A stretch of 64,000 nucleotides of DNA from Cyanobacteria bacterium P01_F01_bin.150 (GTDB lineage: Bacteria; Cyanobacteriota; Cyanobacteriia; CAKZMO01), in the NCBI GenBank assembly GCA_039189765.1, contig JBCCYL010000022.1:1-64000 (forward strand). The letters are read 5' to 3'. The notes under the pieces were generated by a model that was not told where the DNA came from, made no database searches, and saw only the letters and a program-made list of their open reading frames with translations. Of the stretch, positions 182 through 24,180 are shown one piece after another. The first letter of the stretch is position 1. Each line of letters starts with the position of its first letter. A program made the translations under genes and the position numbers.

Positions 182-3100
182 ATGTATTTTTCAGAAGCCA
201 TAATGCGTATAAACAAGAATAAATCACTTCATAAGAATAACTTTTATTGCATCTTTCCTGATCAAGTATGTCTAAGCATGAAATTTAATTTCAAATCTAC
301 AAGTCAGGCAGCCTATAGTTCTATGCGCAAAGTTTCATATGGCCAAAAAGTTACAGCTCAAATTTATTTCATATTTAAAGTCCTGCTGTATTTAAAGAAG
401 CAATATGAGAATGGAAACCATCCAAAAGGTTTTCTTTTACATGGGGAAAAAGGAAGTGAATTCAGTATAACAGCCAATGATTTGCGCAATCACTTGCTTA
501 ATAGTGAATATAGAAATGAATATGAAAAACATAAAGATACTAAACAAAAATATTATGATGCAGATAAAATAAGTAGTGAAAATATACGTGACAAACTCAG
601 TAAACAGTTTACAGATTTAGAAATATTAGAGCGCAAAAATAAAGATAGTAAAAAGGCAGATCTACATTATAGATTCAGGATATTTGACAAAATCGACGAT
701 AGCGCTAGCTTAGTATTAATTGAAGATTTTATACAAGAAAAGATAGCTCAAAAGAGATCAAGAAAGTTTATACAGGCAAGAGATAAGACAGAATCACCAC
801 GAAATATTCCTTTAGCATCAACATATTTTATTGGTCGAGAGAGTGAAATAGAGACCATATACACATATACAAAAAATAATATATTTATTGTCGCTATTTA
901 TGGAATGGGTGGGATAGGTAAAACAGAAGTTGCACTTCAATTTGCCAAAAAATATATTGATTATTATCCTGGTGGTTTACTATGGATTAAAGCAAGGGAA
1001 AGTGACAACGATATAAATTATATAGCAACTCAAATAGTAAATTTTTCAATACTAGAGCTAGAATTTCAGCCACCTAAATCTTCTGATATCAAAGATCAAG
1101 TTAGGTCCTGCTGGCGTAATTGGTGTAAACGGTATCCTGGCAAGAAACTAGTTATCCTTGATGATGTCACTAACTTTACAGGCTTAGTAGAACCATATTT
1201 GCCATCGGCAATGTCACAATTTCAAATCTTGATCACTACTAGAAATTTAAATATTGCAGAGTCAGAAAAATTCTCTACAGTCTCACTAGATGTATTAAAT
1301 TTAGATATCTCTGTCAAACTCATAAGAAAAATATTAAATTCAGATGATAGAAGAATTGAAAATGAACTAGATCAGATTCATAAATTGTGCAATTTTCTAG
1401 GCAATTTACCATTAGCACTAGAATTAGTTTCAAAATATATAAATAGGCGCAAAAGCCTTTCAGTAAAAAAGATAATGCAAAGACTTGTTGAGGCATCTCA
1501 ACCTCTCAAAGATAAGTCATTAATAGGAACAAGTGTTGGAATCACAAAGCAAGGTATTTCTGCAATTCTCGAGTTAAGTTGGCAAGAGTTAAGCCCTGGA
1601 GCACAGCTATTAGCAACATTACTGGCCTATTTTTCAAATGAATCAATTTATTGGGATTTAGTTGAAGATTGTTTAAATTCACAAGAAATTGAAGACTTAG
1701 AAGAGTTTCGAGATGAAGAACTAATCAATCTTAGCTTTCTCAAAGATAATGGAAATGATAGTTACAATATTCATTCTATCATTCATATGTTTTTCAACTT
1801 AAAGCTAGACATATGTCCTGAAAAAGGAATTCTTAAAGATTCATTTATTCAAGTAATGGTTAAGAATTCTCAAAGTTTCCCAAATTATCCTAGTAAGGAA
1901 GAGATTATTTCATTTTCTCAGATATCCTCTCACATAATAAATCTAGTAAATAAATTTGGTGGATGTCTAGGTGATACATCCACAGAGTTATTCTATATCA
2001 CTAAAGCTCTTGGCTCATTCTATAAATCAAAAGGATACTATAGTGAGGGAATTAATTGGCTTGATAAGTATATAAATATTTTAAATAACATATTCAAGAT
2101 AGAAAATAAGGATGACGATCATATTTTCACTTACATTGAAAATATTACTTTAGGTATATATCAAATCGCAGAGTGTCATGAAGCAAATGCATCTTACAAA
2201 GAAGCTAAAGATTACTATTACCAATTATTAAATTTATTCACTAATCAACTAGGATTGAGTTATTTTTCCGAGCCAATTATAGAAACCATCTCTAGAATTG
2301 GTTCAGTTTACAAAAATGAAGGCGATTATAATAAAGCAGAAGATTTATTTGGGCAAGCATTTAGTTACTCGCAAATGGTTATAGTAGATGGGTTGATTAA
2401 ATACTCAAATAAAAATAAAAATAAGCTAATTACTATACAAGCTTTATACAACCTAGCAGATATCTATCGACTCAAAGGACAATATGAATTGGCTGTGAAA
2501 ACTTTTAACGAGGCCCTAGAGCGTACCCAAAAAGGAGAAGGAGCCAGTAGCACAATATACATTCGAATTCTGAATCAATTAGGTCTAATAGCTCATGAGA
2601 AAAAGGCTCATGAAATGTCAGAAGAATATTTCAAAGCAGCTCTGGATTATATTCAAGATGAAAAAGTAAATGGTCATCCTGATATAGCAACAACAATGAA
2701 CAATATAGGACTATTGTATCAATCAACAGGAAATTATCAAGAGTCCGAACTATTTCATAATAAAGCCTTAGAAATTAGAAAAAAAATCTTTGGAGAAAGT
2801 CATCCTGATATTGCTCAAAGCCTTAATAACTTAGCCTCTCTGTATCGTGATAAAGGTGAATTAGATAAAGCTAAATTATTCTTTGAGATAGCTTTACAGC
2901 AATATCAAATTTTCTTTCATGAAAAACCTCATTTACTTTTAAGTTCCTATCATAGTTTAGCAGAGGTAAATTTTATGATATCGAACTATGACCAAGCTCA
3001 AAATCTCTATGAAGTATGCCTAGACATTATTAATAGCAATACAGTTTTAGATCCAACATATATTAAATTAGCACACATAAATATTCTGAAGCAATTAGGA

Positions 3101-3685
3101 GAAATGTCTGATGAACAAGAATCATATAATAAAGCAGAAAAATATTATCAATCAGCATTAGAAAATTGCCATAATTTAAACGAAGCTCAATTTCAATCTC
3201 ACAACAAAGATAAATATGAATTAACATATGAAATCACTTATCTCTTAGTAGATCTCTATGACAAGCAAGATAGAAGCGATGAATCTATTTTACTTATGGA
3301 AAATACCATCCTCTCACAAAAATCAAAATTCGGAAATAATCATATCTATGTTGCCTACAGTATTAATAAACTTGGGCTTATACATCATCAAAAATTTAAT
3401 TATGAAAAAGCAGAAGAATTATACTTTCAAGCCTTAGAAATTTATCAGAATATTTTAGTTAGTCCAAAAGAAAAAGAAGAGAAAACTATACGGATGATAT
3501 TATCATCTTTTAATAATTTAGGCTTAATTTTATTTCAAAAAGAAAAATATAATGAATCTTTTGAATTGTTAAAAGCAGCCTTAAAGATAGCTGTATCCTA
3601 TTTAGGTGAAAATCATTCAGATACTCTTTACATAATGCAACTCTTATTAACTCTAGAAGACTTATCTGGAATTTCAATAGATTAG
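182..3685 (+). CDS. STAND NTPase (NB-ARC) with C-terminal TPR repeats; bacterial NLR-like protein
   Basis: Walker A GMGGIGKT, Walker B LVILDDV, sensor ILITTR, GNLPLAL motif, then many TPRs (HPDIATTMNNIGLLY). True start may be a downstream Met (e.g. MKFNF at 278). Very AT-rich. Confidence 0.9.
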   Translation: MYFSEAIMRINKNKSLHKNNFYCIFPDQVCLSMKFNFKSTSQAAYSSMRKVSYGQKVTAQIYFIFKVLLYLKKQYENGNHPKGFLLHGEKGSEFSITANDLRNHLLNSEYRNEYEKHKDTKQKYYDADKISSENIRDKLSKQFTDLEILERKNKDSKKADLHYRFRIFDKIDDSASLVLIEDFIQEKIAQKRSRKFIQARDKTESPRNIPLASTYFIGRESEIETIYTYTKNNIFIVAIYGMGGIGKTEVALQFAKKYIDYYPGGLLWIKARESDNDINYIATQIVNFSILELEFQPPKSSDIKDQVRSCWRNWCKRYPGKKLVILDDVTNFTGLVEPYLPSAMSQFQILITTRNLNIAESEKFSTVSLDVLNLDISVKLIRKILNSDDRRIENELDQIHKLCNFLGNLPLALELVSKYINRRKSLSVKKIMQRLVEASQPLKDKSLIGTSVGITKQGISAILELSWQELSPGAQLLATLLAYFSNESIYWDLVEDCLNSQEIEDLEEFRDEELINLSFLKDNGNDSYNIHSIIHMFFNLKLDICPEKGILKDSFIQVMVKNSQSFPNYPSKEEIISFSQISSHIINLVNKFGGCLGDTSTELFYITKALGSFYKSKGYYSEGINWLDKYINILNNIFKIENKDDDHIFTYIENITLGIYQIAECHEANASYKEAKDYYYQLLNLFTNQLGLSYFSEPIIETISRIGSVYKNEGDYNKAEDLFGQAFSYSQMVIVDGLIKYSNKNKNKLITIQALYNLADIYRLKGQYELAVKTFNEALERTQKGEGASSTIYIRILNQLGLIAHEKKAHEMSEEYFKAALDYIQDEKVNGHPDIATTMNNIGLLYQSTGNYQESELFHNKALEIRKKIFGESHPDIAQSLNNLASLYRDKGELDKAKLFFEIALQQYQIFFHEKPHLLLSSYHSLAEVNFMISNYDQAQNLYEVCLDIINSNTVLDPTYIKLAHINILKQLGEMSDEQESYNKAEKYYQSALENCHNLNEAQFQSHNKDKYELTYEITYLLVDLYDKQDRSDESILLMENTILSQKSKFGNNHIYVAYSINKLGLIHHQKFNYEKAEELYFQALEIYQNILVSPKEKEEKTIRMILSSFNNLGLILFQKEKYNESFELLKAALKIAVSYLGENHSDTLYIMQLLLTLEDLSGISID

Positions 3686-3838
3686 AGATATTATCATATT
3701 CTCTCTAGAGATAAAAATAGTCTTTCAGAATATTTTTCAATCAATGTTCAGATACCGTATATTTTATAAGACTAAGCGTCCCTTCAATAAAGTCCATCTG
3801 CTTACCATCACCACAAACAGACTCTCGAAGATACACTC

Positions 3839-4345
3839 TTGATCTGTAAAAAAAACGATATCGCTCCTCATTACCTGCCCAATGATGAGCGGTTTTCCAT
3901 CCTCATCACTACCCGTTTGCAATTTGGGCCTCCGGTACAAGCATTCCCCGTTGATGTGCTCCACCACCAAGCACTAGAAGGTGACTATCAGGAAGACCCG
4001 ATATGGACACTCACCGCTCGGCGAGGTTTAGAAGCAGCCTTCGACCTCACCTGGGAAACACTCAATGCACCCAGCCGCATGTTCGCTAAGATGTTAGGGC
4101 ATTTTGAACCTGGCCCCATCAACTGGCACACAGTGGACATGATGAATCAGATTTTGGCAGAGGAGTATCCCGAAGACATTGGCTATGACCCTGAAAAGAT
4201 GCGTCGCGCCAGGTCTCTTCTCATGAAATACAGTCTCCTTAAACCCTTCGATAAGAAGACCTACAGGCTCCATCCTCTAATCCGTGAATTTTTCCGAGGC
4301 AAGACTACTGACGAGGAGTATTCACGGTATGACGCAACAGCGTGA
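3839..4345 (+). pseudogene. Truncated NB-ARC C-terminal/winged-helix fragment
   Basis: Has ILITTR, AAFDLTW and YRLHPLIREF motifs homologous to the upstream NB-ARC protein, but lacks Walker A/B and the GxPLAL helical segment. GC content rises abruptly near 3770. Confidence 0.65.
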
Positions 4346-5978
4346 ACACAATCACTTCACGGCCCACAATTTAGACCGAATATTTGTCAAAACTCAAGCA
4401 CGAATCGCTACACAACTCCCCTACAATCCCACACAGCAGGAATACCAGGATATTCTCCATGACATTCCACAGATTATTCGGGCCACAAGTCATTTGGACA
4501 ACCTTACGATGGAAGGTGCTTTTATTGAACTGTTCTGGTGTCTGGGCCATTTCTATAACGGACAAGGAGATTACCCAGAAGCAGAGAAGTGGTTACACGA
4601 TGACCTCGAAAAAGCTACTGCAAGCTTTACCCTGTATCACTCGACAGTCGCACGATCCCTCAACCTGCTTGGCATTCTGCATGTGATACAGGGCCAATAT
4701 GAGGAAGCCAAACCACTGTATGAACAGGCGATTGAAATCACGCCACAGATAGTTGATGACGACGAACCCGATATCACCTCCTATCTCAATAATCTTGCAG
4801 CACTCTATTATCACCAAAGCCGATATGACGAGGCGGAGGGGCTTTATTGGGAAGCATTAGACCTCACGACCGAGTTATATGGAGAAGACGATCCAGAACG
4901 AGCTGAGATACTCAATAACTTAGCTACGCTGCTGTATGACCAAGGGCGATTTGAAGACAGTGAAATTGTGTGTCTGGAAGCCCTCGCCATGCTCGAAAAT
5001 GACGAGGAGGAGGAGGAAAACGAATATGAGATTGAACCCCTCACAGCAGAAGTCTTGGGCAATCTCGCTGCTGTCTATCGGTCACAAGGAAAGTATCAGG
5101 AAGCAGAACTTGCCTATAGTGAGGCGTTGACGCTCACCAAACTCTTATTCGGAGAACAACATCGTAGCGTCGGAGTAATGCTCAACAATCTGGGAGAGTT
5201 CTATAAAGAGCGAGGGGATTATCAACAAGCTGAAAACCACTACGCAGAAGCATTGGCGATGCATCAGACCTTATTTGGGGAACTGCACCCCCAAGTCGCC
5301 ACCAGCCTTCATGGTCTCGCTACCATCTACCGTATTCACTATCGCTACGAAGACGCTGAAGAACTGTTTCTACAGGTCTTAACTCTGAGACGACAATTAC
5401 TGGGAGACGACCATAGTGAAGTGGTGGGTACCATGATTAATCTTGCCGCTATCCAGGAAGAACAAGGCCGTTATTCTACTGCGGAGAAGCTCCTACATCA
5501 TGCATTCAACAAAGCAGAGGCTCGCTTCGGTGAAACCCATCCGCTTACCATCACCGCTATGGGGAATTTAGCCTCCCTCTACAGCCAACTTGAGCATTAC
5601 CAGAAATCACAAGAGTTGTTGTTGCGATCACTAGCTCTTGCACGACAAGTCTTCGGTGACACTCATGTCAAAGTTGCAAGGGGTCTGCGTAATACTGCCG
5701 CACTTTGCCGAGCACAAGGCAAATACGAATCGGCCATTGAACTAGGTCGAGAAGCATTAGACATGACAACTGCGCTTGTTGGAGAAGAACATCCAGAGGT
5801 TGTGCCCTGTCTCAAAAGTCTTGCCCTGAGCCATCAAAGCTACCATAACTCCATCATGGCCTGTGCTCTTCTACAGCAAGCTACTGAGATACTCAGCTCG
5901 TTTCTGGGGAGAGACCATCCTGAAACAAAAGCAAACCTCGCTTTACTGGATGAGTGGCAAAGAACAGTTCAAAAATGA
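4329..5978 (+). CDS. TPR-repeat protein (kinesin-light-chain-like TPRs)
   Basis: Repeated LNNLAxLY...QGxYxEAE units. ATG at 4329 is in frame with ORF 4284..5978 and has GAGGAG at 4313-4318. Confidence 0.85.
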   Translation: MTQQREHNHFTAHNLDRIFVKTQARIATQLPYNPTQQEYQDILHDIPQIIRATSHLDNLTMEGAFIELFWCLGHFYNGQGDYPEAEKWLHDDLEKATASFTLYHSTVARSLNLLGILHVIQGQYEEAKPLYEQAIEITPQIVDDDEPDITSYLNNLAALYYHQSRYDEAEGLYWEALDLTTELYGEDDPERAEILNNLATLLYDQGRFEDSEIVCLEALAMLENDEEEEENEYEIEPLTAEVLGNLAAVYRSQGKYQEAELAYSEALTLTKLLFGEQHRSVGVMLNNLGEFYKERGDYQQAENHYAEALAMHQTLFGELHPQVATSLHGLATIYRIHYRYEDAEELFLQVLTLRRQLLGDDHSEVVGTMINLAAIQEEQGRYSTAEKLLHHAFNKAEARFGETHPLTITAMGNLASLYSQLEHYQKSQELLLRSLALARQVFGDTHVKVARGLRNTAALCRAQGKYESAIELGREALDMTTALVGEEHPEVVPCLKSLALSHQSYHNSIMACALLQQATEILSSFLGRDHPETKANLALLDEWQRTVQK

Positions 5979-6458
5979 GATGCTACACGGCTGGCATGGC
6001 AAGCATGACATCAAATAGCGGTTCAATGAGTCTTTCACTTTTCATTAAATAGGTAGAAACAAGATTCAAGTAGTGAAATCACTACGAAAGATAAGCATCT
6101 GAAAATATTTGGTTTTTATTTTCTTATTTTGTAAGTTTTATGCATTTTTCTCTTGACATATTTTTACATGATTTTTCAGATTTACCGAGATGAATTAGAG
6201 AGTGACTCATACATGCATAAAAAGAGGATAAAAACATCAAACAAGAGAAGAGAATAGCATTTCTATAAAGCACTACTAGGTCATTTTAATTTCTTCCACA
6301 TGGGCAAATATAAGCCTAAATTTTCCTTATAAAAACTCATGATATACTAATAAAAATAATTAGATAGTAATTTCGTTATCTAATAAATTTTAAATAATAG
6401 GCTACCCCTCACGACACAAAACGAAAAGGGATAGCCTCCTTAAAAAGGAACATAAATT

Positions 6459-7046
6459 ATGACAACTGAATATGAAAAGTCAACTATTGCAGAATCCAAT
6501 ATTCAAAAACCAGAAGAAGAAAATTTTTCATTAGCTTCACATTCAGCTATTTATGCAGCAGATTTAGCAGATTATAATTCTGGAATTTTAAGAGGAATAT
6601 GGATTCCAATTTTTGAAGATAGTGATAAATATACTATTCAAGATAAAATTCATGAAATGCTAGATGAAAAAGACCATGAAGAATATGCAATTCATGACTA
6701 CAATAATATACCATCTTCAGAACTAGGAGAATATCCAGATTTAGATGATGTCATCAAAGTCGCAAAAGCCGTACATCAGCATGGATATAATTTAATTGAT
6801 CAATACATTAATTCTTTCAGCATAGAAGACTTAAAGGATTTAGAAGATAGATTTTTGGGAATTTATGAAAGTGTAGAAGATTATGCTTACGAATATATAA
6901 ATAGTTGTTATAAAATGGAAAAGATGTTGGGGAATCTTGTACATTATTTTGACTATCAATCTTATGGCAATGATTTAATTCTGGGTGGTGATATTATCAG
7001 CATAAATCTATCAATAGATGAGGTTCTCATATTATCACCATATTAG
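6459..7046 (+). CDS. ardA: Antirestriction protein ArdA (acidic DNA mimic)
   Basis: IYAADLADYNSGILRGIWI, EEYAIHDY and YFDYQSYGNDL motifs typical of ArdA; strongly acidic; AAAGGA RBS upstream. Confidence 0.88.
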   Translation: MTTEYEKSTIAESNIQKPEEENFSLASHSAIYAADLADYNSGILRGIWIPIFEDSDKYTIQDKIHEMLDEKDHEEYAIHDYNNIPSSELGEYPDLDDVIKVAKAVHQHGYNLIDQYINSFSIEDLKDLEDRFLGIYESVEDYAYEYINSCYKMEKMLGNLVHYFDYQSYGNDLILGGDIISINLSIDEVLILSPY

Positions 7047-7068
7047 ATCAATAAAAAATATAAAAAGC

Positions 7069-7099
7069 GAATAACACGATTGTCATAATCGTGTTATTC
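7069..7099. terminator. Stem-loop after ardA
   Basis: GAATAACACGATT-gtcat-AATCGTGTTATTC perfect 13-bp inverted repeat. Confidence 0.5.
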
Positions 7100-7138
7100 A
7101 TTTGTCGATAAAAATTTTACAAATTAGGCGTATAAATC

Positions 7139-7387
7139 ATGAAGATAGAAGAGTTTTTACAAGAATATGGAATAACAGGGTTAACAAAAATGATTCACGG
7201 AATTCTTAAAGATGCCTATTATGAAGGAGTGATAGATAAAAAAGATATTGATTTTGAGGATATATTTCCTTTTCCACCCTCTGAAATCACAGAAGTACAT
7301 TTTTATCATAAAGGAATTGGGGACGGGGTATTTCTCGTCAATAAAGAAGGTAAGAAATACAATTGCTATGGTGAGCTAGTAAAATAA
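7139..7387 (+). CDS. Small acidic hypothetical protein
   Basis: 82-aa ORF co-oriented with ardA in the same AT-rich block; no recognised domain. Confidence 0.6.
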   Translation: MKIEEFLQEYGITGLTKMIHGILKDAYYEGVIDKKDIDFEDIFPFPPSEITEVHFYHKGIGDGVFLVNKEGKKYNCYGELVK

Positions 7388-7420
7388 AATCTCACCAAGT
7401 CTAAAAAATTGCATTAAGGA

Positions 7421-7598
7421 AAAAAGTTATTCTAGCTTTTCCACAGCTAGTGCTCTCAACTCAGCAATCATCCCGCAAAAACCACTGGTCACTAGCTATG
7501 GAAAAGCTAGAATAACTTTTTGATTTATCCACAGATAGCGACTCTACTAGACGGACCTCTGAATGGTCCTCATGATGGTCGCTATCTGTGGATAAATC
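7421..7598. repeat. Two adjacent long inverted repeats with DnaA boxes in the arms
   Basis: Arms 7421-7452/7490-7521 (32 bp, 1 mismatch) and 7522-7542/7578-7598 (21 bp, perfect). TTATCCACA at 7525-7533, TGTGGATAA at 7587-7595, TTTTCCACA at 7437-7445. Confidence 0.85.
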
Positions 7599-7804
7599 CA
7601 TGACTCCCGCTCTCGCTCGATCCCGTTGTCGAGGACTCTGAGGTAGTCATAGCATAGTTTTTCTTCTTGCTACTTGGGTCCACTTCACTTTGCAGATAGA
7701 ATTTTCGTCATACTATAGAGATCTGTATGAGCCACAGTGGAAGCAATCAAATACTACCCCATACTAATTTATCGAATCTTCCTTATTCAATAAAAATTCA
7801 GTCA

Positions 7805-7843
7805 GAATAAAAAAAGAGTACTCACATAATGTGAATACTCTTT
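7805..7843 (-). terminator. Intrinsic terminator directly after the I-F-like unit
   Basis: Minus strand reads GAGTATTCACA-tta-TGTGAGTACTC followed by TTTTTTTATT. Confidence 0.65.
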
Positions 7844-7933
7844 CAAAAGCTGCCTGTTCGGCAGTAAAAAATTACTTATATTAATAAATAATCTTATTTG
7901 AAGCTTTTCTAAACTGCCTGTCCGGCAGTATAC
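7842..7933 (-). CRISPR. Orphan mini-array: two type I-F-like repeats flanking one 36-nt spacer
   Basis: Minus strand: GTATACTGCCGGACAGGCAGTTTAGAAA (7933-7906) and TTTTACTGCCGAACAGGCAGCTTTTGAA (7869-7842). Both resemble the I-F consensus GTTCACTGCCGTATAGGCAGCTAAGAAA with the CTGCC/GGCAG stem intact. No cas operon in the window. Confidence 0.7.
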
Positions 7934-8234
7934 ATGAATTAGATTAACTGATTTCTATTTTAGATTCAAATATTTTTTCAGGATGAATTGCTTTTTAGGT
8001 TGCATTGCTTATACTTCCTCTACTGACATTTTTTATGTTTTAAAAAATATTTTGGTTACATAAACAGTTGTTTAAGCTGCTAAATTTACCCAGTGGCTAC
8101 CCCGTCGGGTATCCTCTGGTAAGCAGTGGTAAATTACCCAGTGTTATATCCATCAATAAGTCAACATACCAAGGCACCGAAGGTGCCAGAGGCATTTCAC
8201 ACAGATGAGGTGAAAAAAGAAGGCCAGGGCAGGT

Positions 8235-9101
8235 TCAGGAAAAGGAAGACTGGTCAGCAATAGAACCATCAAGGCAATACAAATGGTCTCCCATAGCTCC
8301 TGTAGTCGGCTGATGTATAACCTCTCCTAATTCCAGTAGAGATCGCTCTAAATGAAGGGGGATAACTTGCCCAAATTCTCTCACTCGCTCGTCAAAAATA
8401 ACAATCTCACTTTCTCTGACTTCAGCGACCGGGATCTGAGATTGTTCCATAATGCCTTCTGACACTCTTAGCCTAGTCACAGTCTCCAAATGAGTCAGTG
8501 ATGGAACATTTTTACAACCAGCAGAGAGTACATTAAACACGTTGTCATTACTCTGCTCAAGGTGGTGACGAAAATCTAAGCAATATCCAAACTCATCCAA
8601 GTCCTCAATCAATTCACCTACATCTAATCTATCAAGCGGGAGAAATAGCTTAGTTCTTCGGGGATACTGCTCTCGTTCACTCGTCCCATTCAAAGGATCA
8701 CAAATAGTGATGCGTGATCGCCCTCTCTTCGCCACTTGAACAGGGGTCCACACATAAACGGTATGAACACGATAGTCTTCCCAATCAAGAGCATCCATAA
8801 CTCTTCGGCGGTAAATACAGTCAGTTGTCACAGTGGCTGGTGGTGACGGCTCACCCGAAGACTGCTCAGTAGCCTCGACCACCTGTGCTCTCGACATTTC
8901 TTTGAGTGCAGCATCAGTTATCACCCCACGTAACCATTCAATGCGCTCTTTTTGGGATTTAGACCGCACCCATGCATCAATCGACTGTGGGACTTTAACC
9001 GCTAGGGGCTGTTTGGCAAGGGGTTCATCTGGCAACTCAGAGATAGGCTTAAATTGCTTGGTCTTAAACTCAGTCGTTTGTACAGGATGGGGATTCGGCA
9101 T
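8235..9101 (-). CDS. Hypothetical protein with possible N-terminal ribbon-helix-helix-like segment
   Basis: 288-aa ORF. N-terminal PLAVKVPQSIDAWVRSK...EWLRGVI has an RHH-like strand-helix-helix pattern. Confidence 0.65.
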   Translation of the reverse strand: MPNPHPVQTTEFKTKQFKPISELPDEPLAKQPLAVKVPQSIDAWVRSKSQKERIEWLRGVITDAALKEMSRAQVVEATEQSSGEPSPPATVTTDCIYRRRVMDALDWEDYRVHTVYVWTPVQVAKRGRSRITICDPLNGTSEREQYPRRTKLFLPLDRLDVGELIEDLDEFGYCLDFRHHLEQSNDNVFNVLSAGCKNVPSLTHLETVTRLRVSEGIMEQSQIPVAEVRESEIVIFDERVREFGQVIPLHLERSLLELGEVIHQPTTGAMGDHLYCLDGSIADQSSFS

Positions 9102-9130
9102 GGAAGACAGGCATACTTCACAGTTTTGCT

Positions 9131-9193
9131 ATTTTATCCCGGTTACCGTGATATATGGTTACTGATATTGTTTCATGGTTACCGGGATAAAAT
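9131..9193. promoter_or_regulatory. Inverted-repeat operator-like site upstream of 8235..9101
   Basis: ATTTTATCCCGGTTACCGTGA / TCATGGTTACCGGGATAAAAT (21 bp, 2 mismatches); three GGTTAC copies. Confidence 0.5.
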
Positions 9194-9639
9194 TCTGATA
9201 TCAGCCATGACACGCCTTACCAAACACCGAACCACTTGCAACCCCCACCTCACGCAAGAATAAGGAAAAAATTTATTTCCAGCTTTCCCACAAGCCCAAG
9301 GCTCAAATACACGCCTCAAAATAAGTCCTTCCCTTTTGCCATCCAAGCTGTTAACATCCCAAGACTAAAAGGATTTTTATACGGTTCTATTACTACGGGG
9401 ACATAACCCGTGGGCTGTCTTGATTTTCACTCCTGCGGGTTGTTACATGTCCCCGCTTCTCATACCTCTTACCATCGGCCTTCTGCGTGAGGCACACGAT
9501 AGGTCATTACCTACTCCATGCTCGCCGATATGATGTTTGTCATTTTTATGGCCCCAAACGCCCGAAAACTCTTGATTTTTCTCAATCACTCCTGTTAGCC
9601 TTTCGCACCATACGCTGTGTGTTCATGACTTCGCTAAAC

Positions 9640-10545
9640 ATGATGGTGAATGCTATGACACGGCTACCGTATTTGAGCGACGATTACACCTTGGCTTGGG
9701 GCTTACCACCTCAAGTAAAAAAGGACAGGGTTGCTCCTGTAACGTAATCGAACTCTTAGCGTATAGTGCCTGGAGACGGGCTGGCTATATGCGAGGGAGG
9801 CTCGTTGAAGTAATCCTGCATGAATGCAGAGTAATCTCAACGTTCGATCCCATACCCAAAACTTTGGTATTTAACGGAAATTGGGCGACCGAGACATACC
9901 TTATCTCTACACAGTGAGGTAAGGCCGTATGAGTAGGAATGGTGAAACAATAATCCATCCAAGGGGGGAATAGGCTAAGTGAGTAATCATAAGCCGTTCA
10001 ACCCTTGCCAGCGTAGGGAGCTTGGGCATGGTGACATGTTCAATCGGGGGATGATAACCACCGACGACTGTACGAAATTACAGCGGTGAAAAGCTCAACT
10101 ATGAAAGGCGGGAAACCGCTTGCTGGTAAGAGTAAAGAGAGACGCAAGGCCGAACCGTTGAAAAGACCTTACGTGGTAATCCAGGAGCTTCTGCTTTCTG
10201 CCTGGGGAAATCTGCAATGAGAATGGCTTCAAGCCATCAGCGTAAGTGTCCTGCTGATAATAACCAGCTAGCGACGTGACTCTTTATTCGACTATTCATG
10301 CTAATCGGGGAAGGTCTGAGTTGGGCGAGAAGTTGCTATCCCGCCACCTGCCCTTATCAGGCAGTGAAAAAAGACATCAGACTGGGAGCGGGGAGCAAGT
10401 AGGGGCAAAGGTCTATGACCTTCGGGGGACAACTGGCAAGGCAGTCAGGAATCTCTTCGTGATCGGGGGTGGTAGCCCGATCAATTAACGACTACGAAAG
10501 CTCTGAGGAGGTCTCGAATCAAATACGGTAGCCTCCACCATGATG
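9640..10545 (+). ncRNA. Candidate giant structured non-coding RNA (~900 nt), family unassigned
   Basis: Perfect 15-bp terminal helix 9662-9676/10519-10533, nested long-range pairings, many GNRA/UUCG-capped hairpins with G-U pairs favouring the + strand. No credible ORF. Confidence 0.75.
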
Positions 10546-10831
10546 GGTTGAGGGATGCTCTATGAATCAAGAGAGTATCCCTCAACCACACACAGTACAA
10601 ACAGTGAATACTCTTTTTGCGAGGAACACCATGCCTATGAAGCACTGCACTTAGGACAGACCACATTCTCAAGACATATGCCTCAAACGGCGTTTGAGGT
10701 GAAATCAAAACACTTTTTACTAAAGCACGTAAGTAGTTGGTTTTTATGGCAATTGTTACGGCTTTAAGGAAAGTGGGTGCGCGGCGATTCTACGGTCGTA
10801 GAGGGCTACTGCGCCCCACCCGGTATTTCTG

Positions 10832-10872
10832 GCACTGGTTGACCGCAAACAAACCAGTGCTTCCTTTTTCTT
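10832..10872 (+). terminator. Terminator/attenuator-like hairpin just before the RBS of 10891..11481
   Basis: GCACTGGTT...AACCAGTGC followed by TTCCTTTTTCTT; AAGGAG at 10880-10885. Confidence 0.5.
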
Positions 10873-10890
10873 GGTCTAAAAGGAGACAAA

Positions 10891-12050: not shown

Positions 12051-13109
12051 ATGCCTAAACAATCCTCTCTCTTCCCTGAAGACAACTACAAAACACTCCT
12101 GGGAAATCTGAAACAACGCATTGAAGAAGCCCAACTCAAAGTAGCATTGACAGCTAATCAAACTGGGGTCTATTTATACTGGCAAATCGGTCAAGAGATT
12201 TTAGCGCAGCAAAAGAAACAAGGATGGGGCAGTAAGGTAATCGACAGACTCTCCCAAGATTTGAAGCGAGCATTTCCAAACATGCGGGGATTCTCCCCCA
12301 GAAACCTCAAATATATGCGAACATTCGCAGCTGCCTATCCGAACGAGGAAATAGTGCTGCAAACGATTGCGAATGTTCCATGGGGGCACAACCAAACGTT
12401 ACTCAACAAACTGGATGATATAGAGCAACGTCTTTGGTATGCCCAACAAAGCTCAGAGTATGGTTGGAGTCGCAACGTCTTGGAAATGCAGATTGAGACT
12501 AATTTGTTCAAACGTCAGGGAGGTGCGATCACGAACTTTGAACGCACATTACCTCCAGCCAACTCTGATCTTAGTCAGCAGCTTTTGAAAGACCCGTACA
12601 ATCTGGATTTTTTCTCGCTTGCACGAAATGCTCAAGAGCGTGATTTAGAAAATGCTCTTGTGAACCATATGAAAGACTTCCTCCTAGAGCTAGGAGTTGG
12701 ATTTGCCTTTGTCGGTAGCCAGTATCGCTTAGATGTCGAAGGAGATGAGTATTTTCTTGACCTGTTGCTGTATCACCTGAAGTTGCACTGCTATGTCGTG
12801 ATTGATCTCAAAATGGCAGAATTCAAGCCAGAATACGCTGGTAAGATGAATTTCTACGTCACGGCGGTCAATCGGCTCCTTAAAGACGAGCGAGATGATC
12901 CCACCATCGGAATCGTGCTGTGTCGCTCAAAAAAGAGGACTGTCGTCGAATTCGCACTGGATACTGTACACAACCCCATCGGTGTTGCAACATACAAATT
13001 AAGAGAAGATTTACCACCAGCACTACGCAAAAGCTTACCCAGTGCAGAGCAGCTTGAGTTCGAGCTAGAAAAAGCTGCTCAAGCCCTCGAATCGGAAAAG
13101 AAGAAGTAA
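12051..13109 (+). CDS. YhcG/DUF1016 family PD-(D/E)XK nuclease
   Basis: LYWQIG, GWGSKVIDRLSQDL, GFSPRNLKYMR, KDPYNLDF, LLELGVGFAFVGSQY and IDLK...GKMNFY motifs. Confidence 0.92.
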   Translation: MPKQSSLFPEDNYKTLLGNLKQRIEEAQLKVALTANQTGVYLYWQIGQEILAQQKKQGWGSKVIDRLSQDLKRAFPNMRGFSPRNLKYMRTFAAAYPNEEIVLQTIANVPWGHNQTLLNKLDDIEQRLWYAQQSSEYGWSRNVLEMQIETNLFKRQGGAITNFERTLPPANSDLSQQLLKDPYNLDFFSLARNAQERDLENALVNHMKDFLLELGVGFAFVGSQYRLDVEGDEYFLDLLLYHLKLHCYVVIDLKMAEFKPEYAGKMNFYVTAVNRLLKDERDDPTIGIVLCRSKKRTVVEFALDTVHNPIGVATYKLREDLPPALRKSLPSAEQLEFELEKAAQALESEKKK

Positions 13110-17436: not shown

Positions 17437-17862
17437 ATGAATCTCATCGTCGATGAACAGTTTACGTGGCAACAGCCTGGGAAACCACCATCAGTTGCAA
17501 GAATACGTATCTACAAAAAGCTCAATCAAACAATCGTCATTGCTTCTGAATCACCAGAGAACAAAAGCCAATCACTCACGAACGGGGCAGAATATGCGAT
17601 AGCACAGACTATCAAGCACTATGGCCTAACTCCCCAAACAATGTTGTGGATCGAAAACTATCCTCCGCGTCTCCCAGTAGAGACCAGAATCGAGGACGAG
17701 TATCATCTCGTCCAGTTCACCTACGACCCCAAGGGTAAGACATTTGAAACCCCCAATTGGATTCAGCTATCTCCCAAAGAAGTGAAGAAGCTTATAGAAG
17801 GGGATAATGCACCTCTTCAGAACCTTATGCACAGGAAACCTACTCATGAAGAGTGGTGGTAG
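17437..17862 (+). CDS. Hypothetical protein
   Basis: 141-aa ORF with globular composition, ending at a convergent hairpin. Confidence 0.7.
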   Translation: MNLIVDEQFTWQQPGKPPSVARIRIYKKLNQTIVIASESPENKSQSLTNGAEYAIAQTIKHYGLTPQTMLWIENYPPRLPVETRIEDEYHLVQFTYDPKGKTFETPNWIQLSPKEVKKLIEGDNAPLQNLMHRKPTHEEWW

Positions 17863-19349: not shown

Positions 19350-20285
19350 TCAAGCAACGGATGAAGCCACAACGGGTTGCTGAAGTTTATTACTCCGCTT
19401 GATAGGGGCAGGGACTCTTTTCTTAGGAGTCTTGGGTAACGTATCAGTGCGGTCTAACGCCACATCAAACCGATGAGTAAGGCTTTGAACAATATCACTA
19501 TCAGTGGTGAATATCCCAACATCACGGTCATGATTACCACTACTAGAAGTAAGAAAGTTATGACTGCCCAGCATCACAAAGCTGTCGTCGCACACCACAT
19601 ATTTTTCGTGAGTTCCTAAAACTTTGCAATCACAGTGCTCGAATTCTGCCACAAGCCTGTTGATAACGCTAAGGCCATTATACTTCCATGTGTCGCTTTG
19701 ACTCCCACAAAATACCAACTGATTCTCAAGAAATTTCAAGCAGTGCAAATCAGGCAAGTAGCCAATACCGAATGAAATTCTCACACCTCTTTCTAAAAGG
19801 GTGTTCAGCTTCGCTTCAACTTCTTGATCGAGACCAGAAGAAGAAACCCAAGGACACACAATAACCAATCGTTCCTGGGCCACAGTAAGTGCATGAAGCA
19901 ATTTAGCACGACTCTCGGCCTTATCCTCAACAACCTCATAGATGGGGGTAGATAACGCTGCCTGTAACTGTAAGCAGATATTTTTTTCAGATTGCAAAGA
20001 GGTCGCATGAATAGCCTGTAATTTATCCTCCACACGTCCTTGATGTAGTGAAAGAATCTCCTGCACCTTGCCATGAGAAGAATGAAGCTGCCTTGACAGC
20101 GAGCGTTCAAGTTGGAAGCGATTGCGTAGGGCAACAGAGACATAACCAGCAAAAAGCAGCAATGAAATAAAAGCAGGGAACTTCCAGGTACATGCGCCGA
20201 TTGCACCTGCAAGGAGACCATATTCGGTAGCTACAGTAGGAAGCTTTGCCACTTGCCACACCCATTCAACATCATCGGTCCCCAT
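19350..20285 (-). CDS. Membrane-anchored phospholipase D-like (single HKD) protein
   Basis: HEKYVVCDD...GSHNF HKD motif, VCPWV, N-terminal transmembrane segments. Confidence 0.8.
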   Translation of the reverse strand: MGTDDVEWVWQVAKLPTVATEYGLLAGAIGACTWKFPAFISLLLFAGYVSVALRNRFQLERSLSRQLHSSHGKVQEILSLHQGRVEDKLQAIHATSLQSEKNICLQLQAALSTPIYEVVEDKAESRAKLLHALTVAQERLVIVCPWVSSSGLDQEVEAKLNTLLERGVRISFGIGYLPDLHCLKFLENQLVFCGSQSDTWKYNGLSVINRLVAEFEHCDCKVLGTHEKYVVCDDSFVMLGSHNFLTSSSGNHDRDVGIFTTDSDIVQSLTHRFDVALDRTDTLPKTPKKRVPAPIKRSNKLQQPVVASSVA

Positions 20286-21538: not shown

Positions 21539-21853
21539 AAATGTGTTCTTCTATTCACTGCGAACACATATTACGCATTGAATCCACCAGCACGGTAGCG
21601 TACTATACATGCACTCTATTAGTAGAGTACTAGTAGAGTGCTTTACTCTGCCGCACAAATGCTATACTCATTCCCAAGTAGAAAAAGCATCACGTCTTAT
21701 GCTTGACTACGATGCCGAATACACTCTGCCGTCTAGCATCTAGCAACGTAAGGAAGCTCACCAAACTAACCAACTGCTGTGTGATAGAAGCGTTGCTAGT
21801 GCAAGTTTTCTCATAATCGAAAAAATATCTACCCAAAAACACGCGAGGTTATT

Positions 21854-22060
21854 ATGACCAAAGAAATTCAAGGTCTCACCATCCTTACTCGACCCTGCGA
21901 TCAAGGGGACTGCCCCACACTCTATTCGGATACGGATGGACGTATCTTTGTACAGGGAAATAAGCTTGATAGAGCAAACCATGCTGGCCTGACAGTTCCC
22001 GACCATGAAGGCGTGGTGGAAATCACCCCAGAGCTGATTGAGTTCTTGAAATCCCAATAA
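21854..22060 (+). CDS. Small conserved-looking hypothetical protein (CxxxxCPTLY...VQG)
   Basis: GAGG RBS; motif CDQGDCPTLY..GRIFVQG..VPDHEGVVEI. Confidence 0.7.
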   Translation: MTKEIQGLTILTRPCDQGDCPTLYSDTDGRIFVQGNKLDRANHAGLTVPDHEGVVEITPELIEFLKSQ

Positions 22061-22108
22061 CTTCAAATCTCTGATAGATAAGCTTTCTGGCTCCTGTATC
22101 ATCTAAGG

Positions 22109-22624
22109 TCAGGAGCTAGAAGGTGATGACTCATCCTGCTGAAGAACTTCAGTCTCAATAAAATGGCGAAAATCATGTGAATGAACCATCCTGGCCTTCT
22201 CCCAGTAGGCTTTCACCGTGGGATAGGCAAAAACATTACGAGCATCACGAGTGAAACCATCCATATGCCTAGCACTTGTGATGCCTGTTTTCTGATTCAA
22301 GTACACCAAAAGTACCTGATTTACCAGAAATGAACTGAGCTTTTCAATCTCCCAGGTTTTCGGGTCAAAATCATTGGCCTCTGCAAAGCGCTCTAGCAAA
22401 GGAGGATTGCTGATGATGCCAAAGAACAAATCCCGATGAGCATCAACAGTAGAGTACTTTGCCTCACTGTACCCGCTCACAATCTGATGTTTCACTTGCT
22501 TTAAGAGGAGCTGGACCGTCTTCTGGGTCGAAAACCACAGCAAAACGTTGAATATGGTGGCGATCAACGTCATCACCATCATCATTAACGCAGTCCAATC
22601 AGCAATATTTAACCCCTGCCACAC
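22109..22624 (-). CDS. Hypothetical protein with N-terminal TM helix (DUF6082-like by recollection)
   Basis: AGGAG RBS before a GTG start; TM helix, then HRDLF...YWEKAR...DFRHFIE. Confidence 0.6.
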   Translation of the reverse strand: MWQGLNIADWTALMMMVMTLIATIFNVLLWFSTQKTVQLLLKQVKHQIVSGYSEAKYSTVDAHRDLFFGIISNPPLLERFAEANDFDPKTWEIEKLSSFLVNQVLLVYLNQKTGITSARHMDGFTRDARNVFAYPTVKAYWEKARMVHSHDFRHFIETEVLQQDESSPSSS

Positions 22625-22769
22625 AGCAGCTCCTTTCAGAAATTATCATCACCTCTTTGGAAGTCCGTAGCGTTGAAGGTGATCTCGTTAGTCCTTAAGC
22701 TCTCGCCTGAAAACGCTAACAACTCCAGCCTTACAGGTCAACTAGAATTTTGGGTCAGGCAAATCCAAC

Positions 22770-23969: not shown

Positions 23970-24050
23970 AGTTAAGAGGGAAGTTAAGTTGAACAGTAAA
24001 GAAACCAGGCCATTGAGAGACCTTGGCCTTCTTGTTCAGCAATTCCGGCT

Positions 24051-24127
24051 AGAGCAAATTTTTGGTGTCAAGGGCGCGGAGGTACGGAGCGGCAAAGCTT
24101 TACCCTTGACACCAAAAATTTTGCTCT
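24051..24127. repeat. Long inverted repeat containing TTGACA
   Basis: AGAGCAAATTTTTGGTGTCAAGGG / CCCTTGACACCAAAAATTTTGCTCT with a 28-nt loop. Confidence 0.7.
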
Positions 24128-24180
24128 GGCACCATCTAGCGAACAAAGGGCAAGGGGTTAACGCCTCCCACCCGATACGG

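What the first reader, a model, noticed from the sequence alone, without database searches (positions are those of the whole stretch)
7805..7933. Orphan type I-F repeat-spacer-repeat with its own terminator: candidate RNA anti-CRISPR or regulatory mini-array
Seen: two 28-nt repeats on the minus strand keep the Cas6f hairpin CTGCC-(GGACA or GAACA)-GGCAG. The first ends in TTTAGAAA, an 8-nt handle-like sequence. They flank an atypical 36-nt, very AT-rich spacer (AGCTTCAAATAAGATTATTTATTAATATAAGTAATT) and run straight into an intrinsic terminator. There is no cas operon in the window, and ardA is ~800 bp away. Known: I-F spacers are ~32 nt, and mobile elements encode crRNA mimics (Racrs) and mini-arrays that subvert or redirect host Cas complexes. 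Inference: an anti-CRISPR or regulatory RNA. It is surprising on an apparently cyanobacterial replicon, where I-F systems are uncommon.
Basis: partly seen in the sequence, partly recalled or inferred. Interest (0 to 1): 0.8.

Follow-up and report, generated by a model that had tools for sequence, protein, structure and literature searches.

The report
Orphan type I-F CRISPR mini-array on plasmid
A plasmid-like stretch of DNA carries a tiny stand-alone CRISPR unit (two type I-F repeats around one odd 36-base spacer, ending in a terminator) with no CRISPR protein genes nearby, so it most likely makes a small RNA that borrows or blocks a host's CRISPR machinery, but neither its target nor its host could be shown.

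Summary
On the minus strand, R1 (7933-7906) reaches Rfam's curated score for CRISPR-DR4, the repeat family that sits beside csy3/cas6f in the fetched loci. R2 (7869-7842) keeps the hairpin but has a degenerate tail. They flank a 36-nt, 14% GC spacer, and R2 runs into a strong terminator. The hairpin motif occurs only here in 64 kb, and no Cas protein was found in the window.

It is not an ordinary array end. The 64-nt period was seen in 0 of 1,849 repeat units from natural I-F arrays (95% are 60 nt). There is no leader similarity.

It is not a solitary-repeat Racr, because it has two repeats. Its spacer is too long for the published I-F regulatory mimics (17-27 nt). No target was found in the window, PLSDB plasmids, phage records or 1.47 Mb of I-F loci.

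The replicon has mixed, mostly cyanobacterial-like gene content. No cyanobacterial record appeared among 93 genome loci with this repeat or 39 plasmids with Csy3. The flanking ORFs are singletons, so conservation is untestable.

Best reading (0.4): a trans-acting single-guide crRNA-like gene on a mobile element. A horizontally acquired relic is the main rival. Interest is moderate.

The parts
7941..7969 (-). Candidate promoter: TTGAAT (7969-7964), a 17-nt gap, then TAATCT (7946-7941). It would start transcription at or next to the first base of R1. An alternative -10 is TAAAAT at 7962-7957.
   Evidence: Read by eye. The consensus scan did not call it (no minus-strand promoter in 7300-8400). 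Inferred only.
7906..7933 (-). Repeat R1, 28 nt. It has a CTGCC/GGCAG stem, a GGACA loop and a TTTAGAAA 3' tail, which would become the 8-nt 5' handle of the guide.
   Evidence: Rfam CRISPR-DR4 scores 35.7 bits against a gathering score of 35. It is 21-26 of 28 identical to the commonest repeat of each of the 93 fetched loci. Three bases (A3, G12, T21) occur in 0 of 25 recurrent array repeat variants.
7870..7905 (-). 36-nt spacer with 5 G+C of 36. It can fold into a 12-bp A-U-rich hairpin together with the first bases of R2.
   Evidence: Exact and unique in the window. A 64-nt repeat period was seen in 0 of 1,849 natural I-F units. The hairpin has -6.7 kcal/mol and z = -2.5; 4 of 200 shuffles fold as well. 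No target was found.
7842..7869 (-). Repeat R2. The stem is intact, the loop is GAACA, the 5' part is TTTTA and the 3' tail is degenerate (CTTTTGAA+A).
   Evidence: Rfam CRISPR-DR4 scores 28.0 bits, below the gathering score. Positions 24-26 carry bases seen in 0 of 25 recurrent array repeats. A direct repeat with R1 covers 27 nt at 81% identity, 64 nt apart.
7802..7844 (-). Intrinsic terminator: a 15-bp stem, a 3-nt loop and a T run. Its 5' arm begins inside R2's tail.
   Evidence: Terminator scan. All four hairpins form in the minimum-energy fold of the 146-nt transcript (-46.9 kcal/mol, z = -7.0, 0 of 200 shuffles as good).
6459..7046 (+). ardA anti-restriction gene. This is context only and lies on the opposite strand to the mini-array.
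   Evidence: Pfam ArdA E = 4e-31. PHROG anti-restriction protein E = 6e-30.
8235..9101 (-). ORF of 288 aa directly upstream on the same strand, function unknown. No terminator was called between it and R1, so read-through into the mini-array is possible.
   Evidence: No family found in Pfam, NCBIfam, PADLOC or PHROGs. It is a singleton in the protein collection.

Best explanation
This is a self-contained, cas-less, single-guide type I-F mini-array carried by a plasmid-like element. In effect it is a small RNA gene.

Inferred mechanism:
1. It is transcribed from a weak promoter next to R1, or by read-through from the 288-aa ORF upstream.
2. Transcription stops at the terminator fused to R2.
3. 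In a cell with a type I-F system, Cas6f would bind both hairpins and cut after each stem.
4. This releases a roughly 64-nt crRNA-like RNA: the 8-nt handle UUUAGAAA, the 36-nt spacer, and the R2 hairpin.
5. That RNA loads into the host Csy/Cascade complex in trans.

The element would thereby take over host Cas proteins. It would either direct them at a target not yet identified (a competing element or a host promoter), or at least compete with the host's own guides.

Shown here: repeat family, intact hairpins, terminator, non-canonical spacer length, absence of cas genes in 64 kb, mobile-element context.

Inferred only: transcription, processing, loading and any biological effect.
For: - Repeat family. 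R1 reaches the Rfam CRISPR-DR4 gathering score and R2 is a weaker copy.
- Link to I-F. Repeats of this kind lie next to csy3 and cas6f in three fetched loci (Pfam Cas_Csy3 E = 3e-142; Cas_Csy4 E = 1e-52 to 4e-57).
- Intact stems. All 20 stem bases of the two repeats are intact, while R1 and R2 differ from array repeats only outside the stems.
- Natural variants. The loops GGACA and GAACA and the tail TTTAGAAA each occur in natural repeats (L030, L077, L087).
- Compact layout. R2's tail is overwritten by the terminator stem, so only the part of R2 needed at the 3' end of a guide is kept.
- Fold. The 146-nt transcript folds into exactly these hairpins (z = -7.0).
- Not an array end. The 64-nt period occurs in 0 of 1,849 natural units, so this is neither a normally acquired spacer nor a plain array end. 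No leader similarity exists: all 53 blastn alignments to the 93 loci stay within 7838-7942.
- Mobile context. ArdA, an RPA-type Rep, ParA/ParB, an FtsK/HerA-like ATPase and an integrase are present.
- Precedent. Cas-less mini-arrays, solitary repeats and crRNA-like regulators on phages and plasmids are documented (PMC10651486, PMC11656645, preprint 10.1101/2024.10.29.618823).
Against: - No host with Cas6f is known. None of the 93 genome loci carrying this repeat pattern is cyanobacterial. None of the 39 PLSDB plasmids with Csy3 is cyanobacterial. The replicon's gene content leans cyanobacterial.
- No protospacer or PAM-flanked seed was found.
- No promoter was called by the scan.
- Conservation cannot be tested. 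There is no near DNA match in plasmids, phages or E. coli genomes. The flanking ORFs are singletons. Four distantly related cyanobacterial plasmid stretches (115,130 bases) hold no such repeat.
- R1 carries three bases (A3, G12, T21) seen in 0 of 25 recurrent array repeats. T21 pairs with A5 and extends the stem across the expected cut site, which might impair cleavage.
- A 36-nt spacer is not 32 plus a multiple of 6.
- The mini-array is on the opposite strand to ardA. If this is a leading region, it would not be expressed early from the incoming strand (orientation rule taken from PMC11541004).
Confidence: 0.4

Rival explanations
1. Relic. This is a fragment of a proteobacterial type I-F array or mini-array that reached this replicon by horizontal transfer. 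It has no function in the present host, and the terminator and AT-rich surroundings are incidental.
For: - No cas genes in 64 kb.
- No cyanobacterial I-F repeat or Csy3 in what could be searched.
- Both repeats deviate at positions invariant in recurrent array repeats.
- The spacer length is off and there is no target.
- No promoter was called.
- It lies in a 31% GC stretch between genes.
- The replicon is a singleton, so no evidence of conservation exists.
Against: - All 20 stem bases are intact although 4 of 28 (R1) and 6 of 28 (R2) other positions differ from the Rfam consensus. By my own hypergeometric arithmetic (not a tool result), that pattern has a chance of about 0.007 if changes fell at random.
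- The unit is tightly packed between a possible promoter and a strong terminator that overlaps R2.
- A 4-nt longer spacer is not what simple truncation of an array gives.
Confidence: 0.25
2. Racr-type decoy. The RNA acts mainly as a sponge. Its two repeat hairpins bind Cas6f, and with Cas7f form dead-end subcomplexes that lower the host's I-F immunity against the plasmid. The 'spacer' would be mere filler.
For: - Repeat mimicry on a mobile element, next to an anti-restriction gene.
- RacrIF1 works through Cas6f and Cas7f binding (PMC10651486 abstract and section 5).
- The spacer is AT-rich, partly self-paired, has no target, and has a length that natural acquisition does not give.
- R1's extended stem could favour binding over cutting (inference).
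Against: - Published Racr candidates are defined as solitary repeats with no other (partial) repeat nearby, and this has two in crRNA order.
- A handle-spacer-hairpin RNA should assemble a full complex rather than an aberrant one.
- No acr homologue is adjacent.
- That paper found no association between plasmid-borne solitary repeats and acr genes (90 plasmid units).
Confidence: 0.15
3. Ordinary locus-associated array. The cas genes (type I-F, a minimal I-F variant or a type IV system using I-F-like repeats) lie on the same replicon outside the 64-kb window, or on the host chromosome. This would then be one of that system's small arrays.
For: - The source contig is 80,114 bp, so about 16 kb is unseen.
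- I-F loci in the fetched genomes often have small secondary arrays some kilobases from the main one (gaps of 1.7-9.7 kb).
- Plasmids commonly carry type IV systems (PMC11656645).
Against: - Nothing Cas-like lies within 7.8 kb to the left or 56 kb to the right.
- Period 64 is absent from 1,849 natural units.
- No leader similarity.
- R2 is fused to a terminator, so the array cannot grow or be part of a longer transcript.
Confidence: 0.1
4. Not CRISPR-related. Two GC hairpins flanking an AT-rich segment would instead be part of a replication-origin or regulatory region and resemble I-F repeats by chance.
For: The neighbourhood is rich in origin-like features. There are two long hairpins with DnaA-box-like TTTTCCACA and TTATCCACA in their stems at 7421-7598, and tandem 17-nt repeats at 7975-8008.
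Against: - The match covers unpaired positions too: 24 of 28 bases of R1 equal the Rfam consensus, including 7 of 8 tail bases.
- R1 reaches a curated family threshold with E = 2.2e-4 for the whole window.
- A second copy lies in the same orientation 64 nt away.
Confidence: 0.03

Closest known systems
CRISPR mini-arrays of mobile elements (one or two spacers, no cas genes, use the host's Cas proteins; review PMC11656645, passages seen)
   Same: Two repeats and one spacer, no cas genes nearby, carried on a mobile element, and dependent on host Cas proteins in trans.
   Different: Described mini-arrays have repeats identical to the host's and spacers that match related elements. Here the host is unknown, the repeats are slightly degenerate, the spacer is 36 nt (0 of 1,849 natural units), and no target was found.
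RacrIF1 and other RNA anti-CRISPRs / solitary repeat units (PMC10651486; abstract, passages and sections 5 and 9 read)
   Same: A type I-F repeat mimic in an intergenic region of a mobile element, with a possible promoter directly upstream and near another anti-defence gene. It would bind Cas6f.
   Different: Racr candidates are single repeats with no second repeat nearby. This element has two repeats in crRNA order and would give a complete guide-like RNA.
crRNA-like regulatory RNAs: host CreA/CreR and viral or plasmid 'Cracr' RNAs (preprint 10.1101/2024.10.29.618823; abstract and sections 7, 9 and 11 read)
   Same: A degenerate repeat, a spacer and a degenerate repeat as a stand-alone small gene. 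Such RNAs are found on phages and plasmids and are proposed to reprogram host type I-F Cas proteins.
   Different: I-F Cracr spacers are mostly 17-21 nt and host CreA/CreR spacers 23-27 nt; here the spacer is 36 nt. No match to a cas promoter could be sought in the true host, and none was found in 1.47 Mb of I-F loci. No acrIF24-like neighbour was recognised.
Canonical type I-F CRISPR arrays next to cas1-cas2/3-csy1-4 (for example loci L037 and L044 fetched here)
   Same: The same repeat family, stem and loop size, and a near-canonical handle in R1.
   Different: No cas genes, no leader similarity, only two repeats, a 64-nt instead of 60-nt period, and a terminator fused to the second repeat.

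Membership tests
Type I-F CRISPR repeat (Rfam CRISPR-DR4, RF01317) | A 28-nt sequence scoring at or above the family's gathering score | tested here: met
   R1 scores 35.7 bits against 35. R2 alone does not meet it (28.0 bits).
Type I-F CRISPR repeat (Rfam CRISPR-DR4, RF01317) | A 5-bp CTGCC/GGCAG stem with a 5-nt loop, including the C6-G20 base pair whose mutation abolishes RacrIF1 activity (PMC10651486, Fig. 1 legend) | tested here: met
   Both repeats are intact. These stem positions were fixed by the search motif, so their constancy across the 25 recurrent variants is not independent evidence.
Type I-F CRISPR repeat (Rfam CRISPR-DR4, RF01317) | Association of this repeat family with csy/cas6f genes | tested here: met
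   Met for the family: Cas_Csy4 and Cas_Csy3 lie next to arrays in L037, L038 and L044. Not met for this locus.
[quoted passage not shown] | cas genes (cas1, cas2/3, csy1-3, cas6f) adjacent to the array | tested here: not met
   No Cas family in 42 ORFs of the window by PADLOC, nor by Pfam or NCBIfam. About 16 kb of the contig was not seen.
[quoted passage not shown] | Regular spacers of about 32 nt (60-nt period) | tested here: not met
   The period is 64. Among 1,849 unique natural units, 1,765 have period 60, 56 have 61, 3 have 62, and none has 63-74.
[quoted passage not shown] | A leader upstream of the first repeat resembling other I-F leaders | tested here: not met
   All 53 blastn alignments of the window to the 93 loci end within 7838-7942.
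RNA anti-CRISPR (Racr) / solitary repeat unit | A single repeat not associated with other full or partial repeats | tested here: not met
   Two repeats lie 64 nt apart. The definition is from PMC10651486, section 9.
RNA anti-CRISPR (Racr) / solitary repeat unit | Intergenic, on a mobile element, directly downstream of a promoter | tested here: inconclusive
   It is intergenic and in a plasmid-like context. The promoter is seen by eye only and was not called by the scan.
RNA anti-CRISPR (Racr) / solitary repeat unit | Inhibits the matching CRISPR-Cas system; the host carries that subtype | not testable with these tools
   The host genome is not available. No cyanobacterial I-F was found in the limited searches.
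I-F crRNA-like regulatory RNA (CreA/CreR, Cracr) | Degenerate repeat, spacer, degenerate repeat as a stand-alone unit | tested here: met
I-F crRNA-like regulatory RNA (CreA/CreR, Cracr) | Short spacer (17-21 nt viral, 23-27 nt host) | tested here: not met
   36 nt. Size ranges are from the preprint, section 11.
I-F crRNA-like regulatory RNA (CreA/CreR, Cracr) | PAM-proximal complementarity (9 bp or more) to a cas or toxin promoter | tested here: inconclusive
   The best CC-flanked seed in 1.47 Mb of I-F loci plus the window is 10 nt. Shuffled spacers reach 8-11 nt. The true host's locus is unknown.
MGE mini-array for inter-element competition | The spacer matches a related mobile element | tested here: not met
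   Only weak AT-rich hits in PLSDB (E = 0.04-0.5) and phage records (E = 0.5). Nothing in the window.

The most novel reading that the evidence does not exclude
A plasmid with largely cyanobacterial-type genes carries a purpose-built, non-acquirable (36-nt) type I-F guide-RNA gene, although no cyanobacterial I-F system turned up in the limited searches here. One reading is that the plasmid moves between phyla and uses this RNA to commandeer or blunt the I-F systems of proteobacterial recipients. The other is that a so far unrecognised Cas6f-type system exists in its cyanobacterial host. Either would extend RNA-based CRISPR hijacking to conjugative-type plasmids outside Proteobacteria, and to a long-spacer form distinct from both Racr and Cracr RNAs.
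Probability: 0.12. Interest if true: 0.7.

Novelty: new member of a known kind. Interest (0 to 1): 0.42.

Why it matters
If functional, this would be a plasmid-borne example of CRISPR-repeat mimicry. Its architecture (two degenerate repeats, an over-long spacer and a terminator fused to the second repeat) falls between the described classes: mini-array, Racr and Cracr. Its replicon has gene content pointing to a phylum where type I-F was not seen in the searches possible here. That would bear on how plasmids cross defence barriers between distant hosts, and on how widely repeat mimics are spread beyond phages of Proteobacteria. If it is a relic, it is a small record of gene flow from I-F-bearing Proteobacteria into this plasmid lineage.

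Tried and rejected
**Near-identical DNA.** Searches of window 6000-10000 against plasmids, E. coli genomes and phages, and of 10001-35000 against plasmids, gave no match.

**Sensitive blastn of the mini-array.** In plasmids, only three Legionella plasmid records matched through the repeats; the other listed hits were weak AT-rich spacer matches (Clostridium, Borreliella and others, E = 0.04-0.5), taken as chance. In phages there were 3 hits at E = 0.5.

**The one permitted genome-contig scan.** I spent it on the repeat pattern. It returned 93 stretches. None is from the window's own genome and none is cyanobacterial. Relatives of the neighbouring genes therefore could not be fetched.

**Spacer self-targets.** The best non-self match in the window is 22 of 36, below the shuffled mean of 23.2; 100 of 100 shuffles were at least as good. 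Seed search is reported.

**Relatives of the plasmid.**
- ORF288 and ORF82 find only themselves among 5.8 billion clusters.
- The FtsK/HerA-like protein has no tblastn hit in PLSDB.
- Four cyanobacterial plasmid stretches sharing ArdA or the ORF288 N-terminus have no DR4 hit and no CTGCCN5GGCAG.

**Anti-CRISPR neighbours.**
- PHROGs recognised only ArdA.
- phmmer against PDB sequences gave nothing below E = 1 for ORF82 or ORF288.
- A single-sequence AlphaFold model of ORF82 (pLDDT 72.9) gave 0 Foldseek matches at E <= 0.001 in PDB or BFVD. The top hits were chemokine-like folds with TM about 0.35, taken as meaningless.
- The Atlas search for ORF288 gave no score above 0.82.

**Position-frequency script.** My first version mixed strands and was discarded; one search replaces it.

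**Literature.** Searches for type I-F systems in cyanobacteria gave no statement either way.

**Rejected readings.** A dispersed palindrome is ruled out because there are only two copies in 64 kb. A CAST-associated array is ruled out because no Tn7 or Cas genes were found in the window.
Full report
**Observation**

Reading the minus strand gives the following layout:
- R1, GTATACTGCCGGACAGGCAGTTTAGAAA, at 7933-7906.
- A 36-nt spacer at 7905-7870, identical to the string in the finding and unique in the window.
- R2, TTTTACTGCCGAACAGGCAGCTTTTGAA(A), at 7869-7842(1).
- A 15-bp-stem terminator with a T run at 7844-7802.

The repeat finder reports the two copies as a 27-nt direct repeat, 81% identical and 64 nt apart.

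The hairpin motif CTGCCN5GGCAG occurs twice in 64 kb against 0.02 expected; 0 of 100 shuffles had two or more. The 17-nt core with up to three mismatches is found nowhere else in the window.

Against all 4,227 Rfam families at gathering threshold, the whole window gives one hit. It is CRISPR-DR4 on R1, at 35.7 bits against a cut-off of 35, E = 2.2e-4. In a local permissive search, R2 is the second DR4 hit at 28.0 bits.

The 146-nt transcript folds into both repeat hairpins, a spacer hairpin and the terminator. The energy is -46.9 kcal/mol, z = -7.0, and 0 of 200 shuffles fold as well.

ardA is real (Pfam E = 4e-31) and ends 796 nt away, on the other strand. The one soft point is the promoter. 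The consensus scan calls none upstream of R1, and I can only point to TTGAAT, a 17-nt gap and TAATCT ending 7 nt before R1.

**Which family the repeats belong to**

It returned 93 stretches. Most hold arrays with a 60-nt period, and a minority hold one or two repeats.

The commonest repeat of each locus matches R1 at 21-26 of 28 positions. In three loci I checked, the gene next to the array is Cas6f/Csy4 (E = 8e-52 to 4e-57). In L044 the next gene is Csy3 (E = 3e-142). This ties the repeat family to type I-F by a test rather than by recall.

The loops GGACA and GAACA and the tail TTTAGAAA all occur in natural repeats (L030, L077, L087).

I compared R1 and R2 with 25 repeat variants that recur inside arrays.
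- The stem positions were fixed by the search motif, so their constancy in that comparison set is not independent evidence. Both window repeats have them intact.
- R1 differs at positions 3, 12 and 21, where its bases occur in 0 of 25 variants.
- R2 differs at positions 24-26, also 0 of 25. Its tail is degenerate, as in the pseudo-repeats of crRNA-like genes.
- R1's T21 pairs with A5, giving a 6-bp stem that runs across the expected cut site.

**Why it is not an ordinary array or array end**
- No Cas protein was detected in the window with Pfam (E <= 1e-5 for 37 ORFs, then E <= 0.1 for 27 unexplained ORFs), NCBIfam (35 ORFs) or PADLOC (42 ORFs).
- Among 1,849 unique repeat-to-repeat units in the fetched I-F arrays, the period is 60 in 1,765, 61 in 56, 59 in 12 and 62 in 3. 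It is never 63-74. A 36-nt spacer is outside what I-F acquisition produces.
- The 13 off-size units are mostly shorter (39-58), in line with the short-spacer regulatory units described in the literature. Two are longer (75 and 76).
- Nothing upstream of R1 resembles any leader. All 53 blastn alignments between the window and the loci stay within 7838-7942.
- R2's tail is part of the terminator stem, so the unit is closed at two repeats.

**Target search**
- The spacer has no second copy in the window. The best non-self match is 22 of 36, below the mean of shuffled spacers (23.2).
- With a CC motif on its 5' side, the longest exact seed in 1.47 Mb (all loci plus the window) is 10 nt. Thirty shuffled spacers reach 0-11 nt.
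- blastn of the whole unit against 72,556 plasmids matched three Legionella plasmid records through the repeats. The remaining listed hits were weak AT-rich spacer matches (E = 0.04-0.5).
- Against 50,697 phage records there were three hits at E = 0.5.
- The spacer plus the first bases of R2 can form a 12-bp hairpin. It is only mildly unusual (z = -2.5; 4 of 200 shuffles as good).

**Context and host**

The window is plasmid-like. It carries:
- ArdA, an RPA-family replication initiator, and ParB/ParA;
- RadC and a PLD-family nuclease;
- an M23 peptidase and an FtsK/HerA-like ATPase in a long minus-strand gene cluster;
- a 4,286-aa RHS-repeat protein, a tyrosine recombinase and a methyltransferase.

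Evidence for a cyanobacterial affinity:
- ArdA's best PLSDB matches are Pseudanabaena and Synechocystis plasmids, at 34-36% identity.
- The N-terminus of ORF288 matches small proteins of Synechococcus and Leptolyngbya plasmids, at 46-48%.
- The DUF6399 protein matches Acaryochloris plasmids at 54%.
- ParA matches pSYSX at 38%.
- The nearest Atlas cluster of the ATPase is mostly Cyanobacteriota, score 0.96.
- The HIP1 octamer occurs 4 times against 0.38 expected.

Evidence against a simple assignment:
- The Rep protein matched 1,163 plasmid records; the ten commonest genera and nearly all 20 listed rows are Proteobacteria (best 41% identity).
- The DUF6399 protein also hits Methylomonas and Thiodictyon plasmids.

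I take 'cyanobacterial' as probable, at roughly 70%, not as settled.

On the other side of the question, none of the 93 genome stretches with this repeat pattern is cyanobacterial. All 39 PLSDB plasmids with a Csy3 homologue are, by genus name, Proteobacteria. Both tests are narrow: one repeat variant, and plasmids only. Literature searches gave no statement on I-F in cyanobacteria.

**Conservation could not be tested**
- There is no near DNA match in any annotated collection.
- ORF288 and ORF82 are singletons among 5.8 billion clusters, each seen on one contig of 80,114 bp.
- Four distantly related cyanobacterial plasmid stretches (115,130 bases) contain no DR4 hit and no hairpin motif.
- About 16 kb of the source contig lies outside the window.

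**Comparison with what is known**

I read the following papers.
- The Racr paper, PMC10651486: abstract, passages, sections 5 and 9. It defines candidates as solitary repeats not linked to other repeats. It reports 2,103 on viruses and 90 on plasmids, and shows RacrIF1 acting through Cas6f and Cas7f.
- The preprint 10.1101/2024.10.29.618823: abstract, sections 7, 9 and 11. It describes crRNA-like regulators on phages and plasmids. For I-F, viral spacers are mostly 17-21 nt and host ones 23-27 nt, and most have predicted targets at cas promoters.
- The review PMC11656645: passages. It describes mini-arrays whose spacers hit related elements.
- The leading-region paper PMC11541004: passages. It never mentions Racr or mini-arrays (0 occurrences of either term). 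It stresses that early anti-defence genes share the orientation of the transferred strand, whereas the mini-array here is opposite to ardA.

The present element works most like a mini-array or crRNA-like gene. It fails the defining feature of a Racr because it has two repeats. It fails the spacer-size feature of I-F Cracr and CreA RNAs. It also fails the target criterion of competition mini-arrays, at least in the databases open to me.

No neighbour looks like an anti-CRISPR.
- PHROGs recognises only ArdA.
- ORF82 and ORF288 have no PDB sequence match below E = 1.
- A moderate-confidence model of ORF82 (pLDDT 72.9) has no fold match at E <= 0.001 in PDB or BFVD.

**Verdict**

The sequence feature is real and is a type I-F-family repeat-spacer-repeat unit built like a one-guide RNA gene on a mobile element.

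The most likely mechanism, at confidence 0.4, is trans use of a host I-F system. Cas6f would process the transcript to a roughly 64-nt guide-like RNA that occupies Csy complexes, with an unknown target. A pure decoy role is a variant of this reading (0.15).

The main rival is a horizontally acquired, now idle relic (0.25). It is favoured by the apparent lack of I-F in the likely host phylum and by the lack of any target. It is disfavoured by the perfectly preserved stems and the compact layout with a fused terminator.

An unseen cas locus on the same replicon remains possible (0.1). A non-CRISPR origin is very unlikely (0.03).

In kind, this is a new member of a known class: CRISPR components co-opted by mobile elements. 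It has unusual details, namely the 36-nt spacer, the plasmid setting and the possible phylum mismatch. Interest is moderate, because function, host and conservation are all still open.

Noticed in passing
window 7421-7598: Two adjacent long perfect or near-perfect hairpins: 32-nt arms with a 37-nt loop, and 21-nt arms with a 35-nt loop. Their stems contain DnaA-box-like TTTTCCACA and TTATCCACA. As single-stranded DNA they fold at -55.6 kcal/mol, z = -14.8. They lie between ardA/ORF82 and the mini-array's terminator. They may be a single-strand initiation signal, a single-strand promoter, or part of oriV; the link to DnaA boxes is from recall.
   Followed up: partly
window 7975-8008 and 8083-8143: Tandem 17-nt direct repeats (82% alike) sit directly upstream of the candidate promoter of the mini-array. 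A pair of 13-nt direct repeats lies 48 nt apart further upstream. Either could be an operator or iteron-like site.
   Followed up: no
L053 9901-10200 and L071 9901-10200: A solitary, perfect-stem I-F repeat is embedded in sequence that is 279 of 300 identical between two uncultured proteobacterial genomes. The differences look like third-codon changes, as if the repeat sits inside or at the end of a conserved gene.
   Followed up: partly
L069 8733-9032 and L082 201-500: Crenothrix sp. D3 and a Methylocucumis genome share a one-spacer unit: an I-F repeat, a conserved 32-nt spacer, then a decayed second repeat, upstream of a conserved gene. This could be a host crRNA-like regulator or a homing guide.
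   Followed up: partly
loci L001-L093: 13 of 1,849 I-F repeat units have off-size periods (39, 47, 48, 53, 54, 56, 58, 75, 76). One is a 48-nt-spacer two-repeat unit in L033, whose spacer repeats a sequence found just upstream of it.
   Followed up: no
window 36269-49129 (-): A 4,286-aa protein with YD/RHS repeats, an RHS-associated core, tandem-95 and RTX-like repeats. The Pseudanabaena plasmid that shares ArdA also has a large RHS protein next to ardA and repA (L095).
   Followed up: partly
window 182-5978, 12051-13109, 17437-17862, 19350-20285: Defence-like genes lie around the locus: an NB-ARC plus TPR (STAND-type) protein of 1,167 aa followed by a 564-aa TPR protein; a YhcG/PDC-S02 PD-(D/E)xK nuclease (E = 4e-150); a 141-aa match to the N-terminal part of Shedu SduA; and a PLD-family nuclease with MkoB/DrmC-like matches.
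   Followed up: no
window 9100-10890: About 1.8 kb at 45-48% GC holds no ORF of 90 aa or more on either strand. This could be a decayed gene or non-coding RNA region.
   Followed up: no
window 21758-31967 (-): A ten-gene minus-strand cluster is almost without family matches. The exceptions are an M23 peptidase, a weak VirB8-like N-terminus, and an FtsK/HerA-like ATPase recognised only by the Atlas (0.96, cyanobacterial cluster). It is probably a poorly described DNA-transfer apparatus.
   Followed up: partly
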